Virus record (IMG/VR): IMGVR_UViG_2548876959_000021
Coordinates: 1 to 26,803 of that record
Length of the DNA stretch: 26,803 bases
From: a virus
Lineage: Duplodnaviria; Heunggongvirae; Uroviricota; Caudoviricetes
Strand: one strand, 5' to 3'
In this document: positions 3,001 through 6,000 of the stretch, piece by piece
Layout of the letters: every line of letters starts with the position of its first letter
How positions within the stretch are numbered: position 1 is the stretch's first letter
Position numbers: made by a program

Positions 3001-6000
3001 ACCTGCCGACAATATGTTCTTGTACACTTTGCCATACGAGGTATTGGCATGAGTATCTATGCCAAAGGTTTGACCAACACCAGCGCCTTGAATGAAGTAT
3101 CGTGCAGCAAATCCGATAATATTGTTATTATATACCTTGAAATTTGAAGCGGTGTGACCTTCGTCGGGTTCAATATCTATACCAGCTAATAGCGTATCAC
3201 CTATGTAGTTTCCATGAATCTCAAACTGCCTAGTATCACTTCCGGCTGCAATACCCATCCTATTGGTTGTAATGATGGTGTTATGCCTTACCTTGAAATT
3301 TTTCGCGTTATAAACCAGGATGCCATCACCACGCTGCATCCCTACACCACCAATATTTTTGATATTACAATTTTGAATTAACAGCCCATCCGTCTGTACA
3401 TCGTAGTTTGCATAATCACCGAACCATATTCCTATGCCGCACTCACCGGATAGCATTGAAATTCCAATATCGTGAACATTCACGCCGTCTATAACGATAT
3501 TGCTGCCACCGTACCCACGAATTCCTCCATCCAGGGTGCCTGTTATATCAACATCAATCACTTTGGCGTTGGAGATGTTAGCCATAAGTATCCCGGATTT
3601 CTCTTGCTGAGTTCCGCCATCAAATTGAAAGTTTAATGACCCGCTATGCATCACTTTATTACTTTTGTGGTTAATAGGTGAGCGAAGTTTTGAAACGAAT
3701 CCGACGCCACCAAGTTTAACGCTAGGAGATTCAGAGTCTAATGCAGCGGATACAGCAGCATCGTTGAACTCTCCATCAATAGCACCCCATCCGCGAATGT
3801 CACCCTCTTCTCTCCACTGCTGAATTTTAATATGCTGATCCATCGATGGGATTAGAAGATATCCATTTGGACCCGCTAGCTCTTGTCTTAATTGGTCAGG
3901 GTCATACTTCAGCACATTAGGAAAATAGAACTGCTGCACACCGTACGCATCATAAACAGCCATAGAATGGCCTTGCACAGTTACGAACTTGGCAATCTGT
4001 CCGTTATATACCGGATATCCAGCAGCATTAATGATGATTGGTTGAGAAACAGGAACGTGAGAGCCATCTTCGTTCTCTACATAAACCTGAATCTGGTTTT
4101 CAGGATTTACCGGGTCCGTGTCAATTTTACCGATATAAATTTTGCCATTGGCTACGGCTTTAAAAGAACGCGCCATAGTGAAGAGTTGCGAAGGCATGCT
4201 TACCACAACATTGGCTGTAATGTCTGTCATTTAATTTGCTCCAGATACAAGGAATCGCCGCAGCGTGGCCACGGTTGGAATTTGTTACATACCGAAACGG
4301 TACGATTGTTGATTTGTACAGTAGGTTTTACGATGCCATTCCACCCATTTGGTGAGGCATTGATGATGTACAGCAAATACGATGAGGCGCAGTTCCACTT
4401 GAGGCTTACGCACGAGTTGCACGCTAAGATTAAGCAGCGTGCAAAAATGAATAACAGGTCTATCAATTCCGAAATTGTGGCTACGATGGAAGAATCACTC
4501 TCCAAACCATCACCTGTAAGCGGGTATCGTGATGAAGAAGAGAGGCTGGCCTCATTAATCTCGGAACGAGTAAAAGAAGTTGCGGCTGATATCCTTAGAA
4601 AAGAAAAAACCCGCGATTAAGCGGGTTTAGTTGGTTAGTTATCAAAAAGTCCGTACGTTTCTTCTTCTTCAGGTGTAAGGGGAAGAATCTCTACTCTATC
4701 TATAGATACCTTTTCAATGTACCCATGAGGTCTACTTAAAATTAAAGCTCTCTCATGCCACAGAACTCCAAGAATGTGATACCTTCCAGCATCGCCTTTT
4801 ACCCTGGCTCTTCCTTTGATTCTTGGCGGCATAATGCCATATTTTTTCTTTGCCATTATGCAACATTACTCCCATGAATCAGGTGTTGTAGTGCTTTAAC
4901 ACCTTCCTCATTGTAGCGGAACGCTTCCACCTGTTTGCTGGAATGCGCAGATTTATCCAGGAAGAACTTCCCGTACTGCTCAGTTTTGAGGTTGTTTGCG
5001 TTAGCAATGCGACCAATCTTGTTGGCCGTTACTCCAAGCTGCTCTGCAACCTCCCCTGCTGAGTAGTAATGCTCTTCTATTGCCGGAAGAGGTATTGCAT
5101 TAAAACCAACGAGCGGGTTGATTATACTTGCTGCCGCTGTCTGCTTTGCCTCCGGCGCAAGATTTGGCATCAGATCGAACAGATTGGTAACAGCTTCAAC
5201 CGTCATTTTCAATGTTCGCGCTTGACGATACTCAACAAGTCCACTCGCTGATTTACCGCTTTTAATGTGCGCTTCCTGCATACTTTCAAGTTTGTCTACA
5301 AGTGTTCGGCGAACTGCTTTAGATTCGCGAGCAGCAACACGAAGCGCCTGCTTGATAGTCATGGAGATAACATCAATGTCAGCCCCGTTTTTCCGACCTA
5401 CACTTTTTGTGTAGGTCTCGCCTTCCAATTCATCCTCAATTTTCTCGATGAATTTGTTGTTACGTACTGATGGCTCTCCACATAACTTGCGAGCTTCATT
5501 AACCATCATCAGAAGACTTTGGCTGTCAATGGTTTTATCCGTGACAACGGATCCGATGTTTGCTACATTCTTAAAAGTCATTAGGCATTCCTTATGTGGT
5601 AGTAAGGGTGTGACATAGGCCGCCAGCAGCACACTGGCGGTTTTCTTTTGCGCCGTCCTGTGCACCAATCAATGAATCCATTCCTCGCCGCGAAGTTTTG
5701 CCAGCATTGGCTGAGCGTTCTTTACGACAAAATTGTTGGTATCAAGATTCTTCATTTCACGAAGAAGTGATTTCTTGGTTTCTTCTGACATGTAGCGAGT
5801 CTCATATGCAATATCGTAAATCCTTCCTGAAAGCTCAGAACCAATTTGCTTCATTCCCGGGTAGATGTGTTTGCACATTTGTTGACTCTTCTCCATCCAC
5901 AATTGTAAGTAGCAGAGATTAACCAGCTCTTCGTCAGTGAACTGTTTTGCAATCGGTGAGCATTCTGCCTGCCGATCCAAAATATCCAGCACCCAGCGGC

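What the first reader, a model, noticed from the sequence alone, without database searches (positions are those of the whole stretch)
4231..4634. Extra Mnt-like repressor gene divergent from the tailspike, with a perfect palindrome in the shared intergenic region
P22 immI has a single mnt. Here a second Mnt-like RHH gene (4363-4620) lies between the ant operon and the tailspike, transcribed divergently from the tailspike and convergently with the ant operon, with which it shares a bidirectional terminator. The 132-bp tailspike/mnt intergenic region carries the perfect palindrome CGTGGCCACG (4264-4273), which resembles the CCACGGTGG core of the P22 Mnt operator as I recall it. This suggests an autoregulated repressor that may also gate tailspike expression or read-through from the ant operon.
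Basis: partly seen in the sequence, partly recalled or inferred. Interest (0 to 1): 0.5.

Follow-up and report, generated by a model that had tools for sequence, protein, structure and literature searches.

The report
Tailspike-adjacent Mnt repressor; palindrome not operator

Summary
The gene (4363/4366-4620, +), its orientation, the 132-bp intergenic region and CGTGGCCACG (4264-4273) are all present. The protein is a full-length P22 Mnt homologue (46.6% identity; matches PDB 1MNT at E 3e-16). It is closer to P22 Mnt than the "regular" mnt-like gene at 6654-6974, which shares only the DNA-binding domain.

The palindrome is not the operator. Only 1 of 81 related loci has it. The usual sequence is CATGGCTACG, which P22 and CUS-3 also carry without an adjacent mnt. 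It lies in the poorly conserved half of the spacer.

The likely operator is TACCGAAACGGTA (4290-4302). It aligns column for column with P22 Omnt, just upstream of a Pmnt-like promoter (TTGTTG-17-TACGAT). It is near-invariant in relatives with the same beta-strand (AQFHLRL), and relatives with PQFNLRLP carry AGACCACNGTGGTCT instead.

Having mnt divergent from the tailspike is a known, widespread form of the "ant moron" (ST64T, L, Sf101, Gally, JEP4). dN/dS of about 0.02 in the most informative comparisons shows the gene is functional. Control of tailspike transcription remains untested, although RNA-seq on prophage Gally shows mnt and tailspike induced together, independently of the late operon.

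Verdict: an ordinary new member of a known kind, of modest interest.

The parts
2293..4230 (-). Tailspike gene (P22-type head-binding domain plus beta-helix)
   Evidence: ORF; Pfam Head_binding 6.9e-67 and Beta_helix 5.9e-11
4258..4274 (-). Small hairpin in the tailspike 5' leader (sense strand CCGUGGC-CAC-GCUGCGG).
   Evidence: Present in the MFE folds of window, P22, Sf101 and VSe13 leaders. 88.6% of cells paired in alignment A1 against 22-61% when slid, but 28 of 500 shuffles reach this value. CUS-3 record annotates the stretch as bsq1.
4264..4273 (.). Perfect palindrome CGTGGCCACG: a rare two-base variant of the usual CATGGCTACG, not an operator
4288..4304 (.). Predicted Mnt operator CATACCGAAACGGTACG (core TACC-N5-GGTA at 4290-4302)
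   Evidence: Aligns with P22 Omnt and with the ST64T and Gally palindromes. TACC, AAA and GGTA are at least 98% conserved in 57 distinct spacers. It co-varies with the beta-strand sequence. It is the only perfect copy in the window and in the JEP4 and Sf101 genomes.
4306..4334 (+). Pmnt-like promoter TTGTTG (4306-4311), 17-bp spacer, TACGAT (4329-4334)
   Evidence: Same position and spacing as P22 Pmnt TTGAGA-17-TATCAT. Only 7 of 12 consensus matches, so function is inferred by homology.
4351..4357 (+). Shine-Dalgarno GGTGAGG for the mnt homologue
   Evidence: Sequence; conserved in relatives
4363..4620 (+). Mnt homologue (85 aa from ATG 4363; relatives support ATG 4366, 84 aa). Beta-strand AQFHLRLT.
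4607..4628 (.). Terminator hairpin between the mnt homologue and the ant operon. Canonical for the - strand, weaker U-tract for the + strand.
4635..6379 (-). Distal part of the antirepressor operon: orf73 (4635-4856), antirepressor-like orf270 (4856-5668) and Ant (5669-6379)
6369..6974 (.). Separate P22-style immI switch. It comprises arc (6369-6542/6557, -), Pant TTGACA-16-TAAATT (6611..6584, -), the palindrome TTGGTTCTAGAACCAA (6570-6585), and a second Mnt-like RHH gene with an unrelated C-terminus (6654-6974, +).

Best explanation
The gene at 4363/4366-4620 encodes a functional Mnt-family ribbon-helix-helix repressor. By homology with P22 Mnt it is presumably a tetramer. It belongs to a self-contained module that sits next to the tailspike gene in many P22-like (Lederbergvirus) phages and prophages.

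Its operator is not the palindrome at 4264-4273. It is the pseudo-symmetric site (A/G)TACC-N5-GGTAC at 4288-4304. This is the positional and sequence homologue of P22 Omnt, 3 bp upstream of the -35 hexamer of a Pmnt-like promoter.

The recognition strand differs from P22 Mnt (His6, Asn8, Arg10 become Gln, His, Arg). The protein therefore reads a different sequence from the P22 and ST64T types. The most likely activity is binding this single site to set its own expression and to keep any tailspike-directed transcription arising at the vestigial Pant position switched off.

The module is independent of the arc/ant switch at 6369-6974, which has its own repressors and operators.

Shown here: homology, synteny, purifying selection, conservation of the site and its co-variation with the beta-strand. 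Inferred: DNA binding, tetramer formation, autoregulation, and any effect on the tailspike.
For: The protein has a Pfam Arc domain (E 4e-15). It aligns over residues 7-79 with residues 3-75 of PDB 1MNT (E 3e-16), is 46.6% identical to P22 Mnt, and falls in PHROG 795 together with P22-type Mnt.

In 82 loci the homologue lies 118-137 bp (258 bp in one locus, L083) from a divergent P22-type tailspike gene. ST64T and ST160 have the same layout.

Alignment A2 puts window TACCGAAACGGTA in the same columns as ST64T GACCACGGTGGTC, Gally GACCACTGTGGTC and P22 Omnt GTCCACCGTGGAC. These are followed by invariant ATTG (containing the first three bases, TTG, of the -35 hexamer) and a TA..AT -10 hexamer (P22 sequence).

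Of 74 loci with beta-strand QFHLRL, 72 carry TACC-N5-GGTA. All nine loci with PQFNLRLP carry AGACCAC-N-GTGGTCT at the same place. The natural chimera L074 (ST64T-type N-terminus, window-type C-terminus) carries the ST64T-type site.

Block 4288-4345 is 76-100% identical in relatives whose leader half is 35-81% identical, apart from one near-identical relative, L082, at 93%.

dN/dS is about 0.02 in the comparisons where dS is about 1.1-1.9, and 0.15-0.24 in the most divergent comparisons where it could be estimated. The one pseudogenised copy (Citrobacter, L089) also has a mutated half-site.

The window and the JEP4 and Sf101 genomes each hold only one perfect site.
Against: No binding data exist for this clade.

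The site has 5-bp arms and is not statistically remarkable on its own. The repeat finder at seed 6 reported nothing.

The Pmnt-like hexamers match only 7 of 12 consensus positions, and the promoter scan found nothing at its 9-of-12 threshold in the spacer. In the Sf101 group the spacer between the hexamers is 15 bp.

A repressor whose only visible target is its own promoter lacks an obvious selective purpose, so a further target probably exists that was not found.

The whole 58-bp block is more conserved than an operator plus two hexamers would require.
Confidence: 0.6

Rival explanations
1. One reading: CGTGGCCACG (4264-4273) is the operator of this repressor.
For: It is a perfect palindrome in the right spacer, and it contains the tetranucleotides CCAC and GTGG that also occur in P22 Omnt.
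Against: It is present in only 2 of 57 distinct spacers of the same Mnt clade. The usual CATGGCTACG is not a palindrome. The stretch is shared with P22, CUS-3 and HK620, which lack an adjacent mnt. It lies in the least conserved part of the spacer. The half-site order is reversed relative to Omnt. The recognition residues differ from P22 Mnt. Ten-base palindromes are at chance frequency in the window.
Confidence: 0.03
2. The main selected role of the module is to gate transcription into the tailspike gene. Mnt bound at 4288-4304 would either repress a Pant-derived promoter pointing at the tailspike, or block polymerases that read through the 4607-4628 terminator from the ant operon. This would keep the receptor-destroying tailspike silent in lysogens.
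For: The operator lies at the Omnt position relative to the Pant-homologous hexamers. In the Sf101 group these are still ATGGCA-17-AATACT (8 of 12), followed by CAATAG and then the operator, the same geometry as P22 Pant.

The module persists in at least 17 loci with no antirepressor gene at all (Sf101 genome).

In prophage Gally, which has the same layout, RNA-seq shows mnt (log2FC 5.3) and tailspike (log2FC 4.4) induced in macrophages. The injection gene just upstream stays at background (PMC9928086).

Villafane et al. proposed that the P22 moron and its repressors modulate transcription into the tailspike gene (PMC2629481).
Against: In this window the Pant-homologous hexamers are degenerate: ATGGCA-17-CAAATC, or TCGTAA-17-AACAAT, at most 7 of 12.

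In Gally mnt and tailspike rise together, which is not what simple repression of the tailspike by Mnt predicts. A strongly expressed gene on the tailspike strand upstream of mnt could explain the tailspike signal by read-through.

The Gally mnt deletion had no phenotype in the one assay done, macrophage survival.
Confidence: 0.22
3. The tailspike-proximal Mnt acts in trans on the ant operon of the same prophage through the one-mismatch site TACCAACTTGGTT (6563-6575). That site sits downstream of Pant, where Omnt sits in P22.
For: The site exists at the Omnt-equivalent place.
Against: One-mismatch sites are no more frequent than chance: 5 found against about 10 expected.

The same distal spacer accompanies a proximal Mnt of the other specificity (L074). 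QFHLRL-type proximal Mnts are also combined with at least two unrelated distal switches, or with none. Some loci have TGCC instead of TACC.

JEP4 has no such site at its ant-like operon.
Confidence: 0.06
4. The gene is a decaying, functionless remnant of an old immI region.
For: The phage L paper raises this possibility for its mnt-like gene (10.1101/2020.10.05.325894). Kapi1 mnt was not detectably expressed in one RNA-seq study (PMC12922286).
Against: dN/dS is about 0.02 at dS above 1. The reading frame is intact in 32 of 33 distinct coding sequences. The operator and promoter block are conserved.
Confidence: 0.05

Closest known systems
Phage P22 Mnt repressor and its Omnt/Pmnt control region (immI)
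   Same: RHH N-terminal domain plus a colinear C-terminal region. A symmetric site of the form xxCC-N5-GGxx lies directly upstream of the -35 hexamer of its own promoter, and the control regions are alignable. The gene is transcribed against the late operon, between gene 16 and the tailspike gene.
   Different: It faces the tailspike gene instead of arc-ant. The recognition strand is AQFHLRLT, not PHFNFRMP. The predicted operator is TACCGAAACGGTA, not GGTCCACGGTGGACC. The Pant hexamers are degenerate.
mnt-only 'ant morons' of ST64T, ST104, ST160, SE1 and phage L (Villafane et al. 2008, PMC2629481; phage L genome paper)
   Same: Identical layout: tailspike (-), about 135 bp, mnt (+), with a palindromic site and a Pmnt-like promoter at the same positions.
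   Different: Those phages have the PQFNLRLP strand and the site AGACCACGGTGGTCT, and no antirepressor genes. The window has a different specificity type, plus a complete second arc/ant switch inserted between mnt and gene 16.
Phages JEP4, VSe13, Sf101 and IME10, and E. coli prophages annotated 'Arc family DNA-binding protein' next to the tailspike
   Same: Same Mnt clade (63-99% identity), same operator motif, same position. JEP4 is 98.7% identical in DNA from the tailspike start codon into the antirepressor operon (window 4218-4900).
   Different: Only the content of the rest of the moron differs: none in Sf101, a C2-like/Rha/KilA operon in JEP4.
Prophage Gally of E. coli LF82 (Misson et al. 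2023, PMC9928086)
   Same: mnt divergent from the tailspike with a palindromic site at the same place. This is the only relative with expression data and a mnt deletion.
   Different: 53% identical Mnt of the ST64T specificity type.

Membership tests
P22 Mnt repressor family (Arc/Mnt RHH; Pfam PF03869; PHROG 795) | N-terminal ribbon-helix-helix DNA-binding domain | tested here: met
   Pfam Arc E 4e-15, residues 8-53
P22 Mnt repressor family (Arc/Mnt RHH; Pfam PF03869; PHROG 795) | Colinear with P22 Mnt beyond the RHH domain (linker SKPSPV.GYR and C-terminal helix used for tetramerisation) | tested here: met
   phmmer against PDB 1MNT: residues 7-79 align with 3-75, E 3e-16. tblastn 46.6% identity over residues 7-79. 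By contrast the 6654-6974 protein matches only 37 RHH residues.
P22 Mnt repressor family (Arc/Mnt RHH; Pfam PF03869; PHROG 795) | Forms a tetramer that binds one symmetric operator | not testable with these tools
   Needs purified protein
P22 Mnt repressor family (Arc/Mnt RHH; Pfam PF03869; PHROG 795) | Symmetric operator immediately upstream of the -35 hexamer of its own promoter | tested here: met
   Homologous position in alignment A2; conservation and co-variation with the beta-strand. Binding itself was not tested.
P22 Mnt repressor family (Arc/Mnt RHH; Pfam PF03869; PHROG 795) | P22-type recognition residues (His6, Asn8, Arg10) and a CCACGGTGG-type operator | tested here: not met
   The strand is Q-F-H-L-R. 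There is no AGGTCCAC-type site in the spacer. This points to a different specificity, not exclusion from the family.
P22 immI switch (mnt / arc-ant) | mnt divergent from arc-ant, with the operator overlapping Pant so that Mnt represses antirepressor synthesis | tested here: not met
   The gene faces the tailspike. The arc/ant genes lie 2 kb away behind a terminator and have their own Mnt-like gene and operators. Cross-regulation is not supported.
'ant moron' of P22-like phages (Villafane et al. 2008) | Variable gene set between the gene 16 homologue and the tailspike gene, inside the late operon | tested here: met
   Gene order; definition in PMC2629481
Bidirectional intrinsic terminator | GC-rich hairpin flanked by an A-tract and a T-tract so that both strands end in a U-run | tested here: inconclusive
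   The - strand meets the criteria (8-bp stem, UUUUUUCUUUU). The + strand has the hairpin but only UUUAGUUGGUU.

The most novel reading that the evidence does not exclude
The tailspike-proximal Mnt and its 58-bp control block form an autonomous, strongly selected module that persists in hundreds of P22-like prophages, including ones with no antirepressor. Its real job would then not be ant control. Instead it would be a lysogen-stage or stress-responsive switch for late-operon-independent transcription of the tailspike gene, and possibly the lysogenic-conversion genes beyond it. Several operator specificities (P22, ST64T and TACC-N5-GGTA types) would have evolved by changes at two beta-strand residues.
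Probability: 0.2. Interest if true: 0.5.

Novelty: new member of a known kind. Interest (0 to 1): 0.25.

Why it matters
The finding corrects a plausible-looking but wrong operator assignment. It gives a testable operator (TACC-N5-GGTA) for a large, uncharacterised specificity class of Mnt repressors.

The natural series P22 / ST64T / window-type pairs beta-strand residues with operator sequences, and a natural N/C chimera adds to it. This is useful material for ribbon-helix-helix recognition rules.

It also bears on a small open question raised in the phage L and epsilon34 genome papers: why do P22-like phages without an antirepressor keep mnt? Selection and operator conservation show the gene is not a remnant. 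The Gally RNA-seq suggests the region can drive tailspike transcription outside the late programme.

Tried and rejected
- **The repeat finder (inverted, seed 6)** on the spacer found nothing, because the arms are only 5 bp.
- **The promoter scan at 9 of 12** found no promoter in 4231-4362 on either strand. A looser scan gave only 7-of-12 candidates, whereas P22 Pmnt and Pant scored 10 and 11.
- **Rfam** (E up to 1) found no RNA family in 3900-7400 apart from a chance-level symR hit.
- **Extra operator copies:** none in the window or in the JEP4 and Sf101 genomes. One-mismatch sites are below chance expectation.
- **Cross-talk with the distal Pant site 6563-6575** was rejected, because that spacer does not co-vary with the proximal Mnt type.
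- **An N-terminal extension from the in-frame ATG at 4333** was rejected. That reading has a stop in L069 and is out of frame in L060 and Gally, and its amino-acid sequence is not conserved in L054/L066 (read from the sequences).
- **Leader hairpin covariation** is suggestive, but not significant against column shuffles (28 of 500).
- **The genome-contig scan** added only three loci.
- **Literature searches** for direct work on tailspike-adjacent Mnt operators found nothing.
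Full report
**What is in the sequence**

The window is the left arm of a P22-like (Lederbergvirus-type) prophage. In order it carries:
- an integrase gene (1-1158, +);
- an Acyl_transf_3 gene (1344-2252, +);
- a tailspike gene with the P22 head-binding domain (2293-4230, -);
- a small RHH gene (4363-4620, +);
- an operon on the - strand with orf73, an antirepressor-like orf270 and an Ant (Bro-N + P22_AR_C), preceded by an Arc gene;
- a second RHH gene (6654-6974, +);
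- two small ORFs, then the gene 16 homologue (7991-10159, -).

The stretch between gene 16 and the tailspike is what Villafane et al. named the 'ant moron' (PMC2629481).

The spacer is 132 bp and CGTGGCCACG is at 4264-4273. The RHH gene is divergent from the tailspike and convergent with orf73.

**The protein**

It has a Pfam Arc domain (E 4e-15). It aligns with P22 Mnt along almost its whole length: residues 7-79 against 3-75 of PDB 1MNT (E 3e-16), with 46.6% identity by tblastn. It falls in the same PHROG as P22-type Mnt.

The distal gene at 6654-6974 shares only the RHH domain with P22 Mnt (37 residues) and with the proximal protein (45 residues). It belongs to a different PHROG. The tailspike-proximal gene is therefore the true Mnt homologue. 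The distal one is an Mnt-like RHH protein that occupies the P22 mnt position beside arc-ant.

Relatives whose upstream codon is not ATG show that the conserved start is the second ATG, at 4366.

**The palindrome**

Perfect 10-bp palindromes occur 17 times in the window, against about 26 expected at random.

I collected 80 IMG/VR loci, one usable species-representative genome locus (Citrobacter) and several annotated phages that encode relatives. In 82 loci the gene lies 118-137 bp (258 bp in one locus, L083) from a divergent P22-type tailspike gene.

Among the 57 distinct spacers of the same clade, the 10-mer at this position is:
- CATGGCTACG in 24;
- CAGAGCTGCG in 7;
- CGGAGATGCG in 6;
- CGTGGCTACG in 5;
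- CGTGGCCACG in only 2, the window and L031.

The same stretch (GGAATCGCCGCAGCATGGCTACGGTGAATTTT) precedes the tailspike gene in P22, where it occurs twice, and in CUS-3, where the record calls it boundary sequence bsq1. HK620, epsilon34 and about 1000 E. coli genomes match through the start of the tailspike gene and its leader (window 4180-4283), whether or not an mnt gene is adjacent. It also lies in the least conserved half of the spacer.

The half-site order (GTGG|CCAC) is the reverse of P22 Omnt (CCAC-G-GTGG). The palindrome is a two-base variant of a shared tailspike leader and not an operator.

**The likely operator**

Twenty bases further on lies CATACCGAAACGGTACG (4288-4304). A MAFFT alignment of the mnt-upstream regions of the window, VSe13, Sf101, ST64T, Gally and P22 places TACCGAAACGGTA in the same columns as:
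- ST64T GACCACGGTGGTC;
- Gally GACCACTGTGGTC;
- P22 Omnt GTCCACCGTGGAC.

CC-N5-GG is invariant across all six. It is followed by invariant ATTG (containing the first three bases, TTG, of the -35 hexamer) and a TA..AT -10 hexamer. The window promoter reads TTGTTG-17-TACGAT, against P22 Pmnt TTGAGA-17-TATCAT.

Within the clade, TACC, AAA and GGTA are at least 98% conserved.

The site type tracks the recognition strand of the protein:
- AQFHLRL goes with TACC-N5-GGTA in 72 of 74 loci.
- PQFNLRLP goes with AGACCAC-N-GTGGTCT in 9 of 9 loci, including ST64T, ST160 and Gally.
- PHFNFRMP goes with the P22 operator.

L074 is a natural chimera with the ST64T-type N-terminus and the window-type C-terminus. 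It carries the ST64T-type site, so the site follows the beta-strand.

The one copy of the gene with an in-frame stop (Citrobacter, L089) also has a mutated half-site.

The window and the complete JEP4 and Sf101 genomes each contain exactly one perfect TACC-N5-GGTA.

**Is the gene functional?**

dN/dS against relatives is about 0.02 where dS is 1.1-1.9, and 0.15-0.24 in the most divergent comparisons where it could be estimated. The 58-bp block 4288-4345 is 76-100% identical in relatives whose leader half is only 35-81% identical, apart from one near-identical relative, L082, at 93%. This argues against the 'degrading remnant' option that the phage L paper left open.

**How common and how known**

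The tailspike/mnt divergent layout is that of ST64T, ST160 and phage L. It is also found in JEP4, VSe13, Sf101, IME10, Gally and vB_EcoP-720R6.

In IMG/VR, 219 stretches encode relatives. Fifty-eight complete E. coli genomes hold at least 80% of window 4180-4700.

The window's full arrangement (proximal Mnt, orf73, orf270, Ant, Arc, distal Mnt-like) recurs in sixteen of the 80 loci, and eight more have the same arrangement without orf73. At least 17 loci have the proximal Mnt directly beside gene 16, with no antirepressor.

Proximal Mnt type and distal switch type are shuffled independently. This also removes the idea that the one-mismatch site at 6563-6575 is a target of the proximal protein.

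**Mechanism**

Shown: this is a conserved Mnt homologue with a conserved Omnt/Pmnt-homologous control region.

Inferred: it binds 4288-4304 as a tetramer and regulates its own promoter.

Open: whether it also controls transcription toward the tailspike. The hexamers homologous to P22 Pant are degenerate in the window, at most 7 of 12. In the Sf101 group they are better preserved: ATGGCA-17-AATACT, followed by CAATAG and the operator.

Villafane et al. noted that the P22 moron and its repressors may modulate transcription into the tailspike gene.

In the Gally prophage, published RNA-seq shows mnt and tailspike induced 40-fold and about 20-fold in macrophages. The injection gene immediately upstream stays at background. 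A mnt deletion had no effect on bacterial survival (PMC9928086). The tailspike can therefore be transcribed independently of the late operon in this layout, but Mnt's part in that is unknown.

**Terminator**

The hairpin at 4607-4628 is stable in both orientations. It is a canonical terminator for the ant operon on the - strand, and a less canonical one for mnt.

**Verdict**

This is a real gene in a known and widespread arrangement. The operator assignment was wrong, and a better-supported operator is now proposed. It is a new specificity member of the Mnt family. Its interest is modest and specialist.

Noticed in passing
window 4258-4274 (- strand); P22 L005 2059-2268; L083; L073 740-770: The tailspike 5' leader folds into a 6-7 bp hairpin on the tailspike-sense strand (window CCGUGGC-CAC-GCUGCGG). 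It is kept in P22, CUS-3, Sf101, VSe13 and most relatives through G-C/G.U switches and a few two-sided changes. The wobble pairs work only on that strand. The motif GC(A/G)TGGCTACGG is duplicated in P22 and L083 and forms the junction in L073, so it also behaves as a recombination 'boundary sequence'. Its function is unknown.
   Followed up: partly
window 6558-6653: The distal arc/mnt-like spacer has Pant TTGACA-16-TAAATT (6611..6584, - strand). A perfect 16-bp palindrome TTGGTTCTAGAACCAA (6570-6585) lies over its -10/+1. The overlapping ACCAACTTGGT (6564-6574) and an inverted copy CAAGTTGG (6610-6617) are also present. These are probably the operators of the distal Arc and Mnt-like proteins. 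The arc start is probably ATG 6542 (SD GGAGG), not the GTG at 6557.
   Followed up: partly
window 4856-6379 (- strand): Two antirepressor-family genes lie in tandem in one operon: Ant with Bro-N + P22_AR_C (5669-6379) and a PHROG 1726 'anti-repressor' (4856-5668). They are followed by a conserved 73-aa ORF of unknown function (PHROG 4977).
   Followed up: no
RefSeq phage records (Sf101, ST64T, SE1, epsilon34 and others) and PHROG 795: Mnt homologues are widely labelled 'partition protein ATPase'. An 83-85 aa RHH repressor cannot be an ATPase, so this is a propagated annotation error.
   Followed up: no
L074 3001-3237; L089 3001-3252: L074 encodes a natural Mnt chimera: the N-terminal RHH is as in ST64T and the C-terminal 30 residues are as in the window protein. 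In Citrobacter locus L089 the gene has an in-frame stop and the operator half-site GGTA has become AGTA, so gene and site decay together.
   Followed up: partly
window 4288-4345: The whole 58-bp block, including the 17-bp promoter spacer and GATGCCATTCCACCC, is far more conserved than synonymous sites of the adjacent gene (91-97% identity where dS is above 1). This is more than an operator and two hexamers should need. It may reflect overlapping divergent promoters or another bound factor.
   Followed up: partly
window 1344-2252 (+): An Acyl_transf_3 membrane acyltransferase gene lies between the integrase and the tailspike, in the position of the O-acetyltransferase of Sf101. It is a likely O-antigen-modifying lysogenic-conversion gene. 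The Pfam match starts at profile position 53, so the true start may be upstream of the listed GTG.
   Followed up: no
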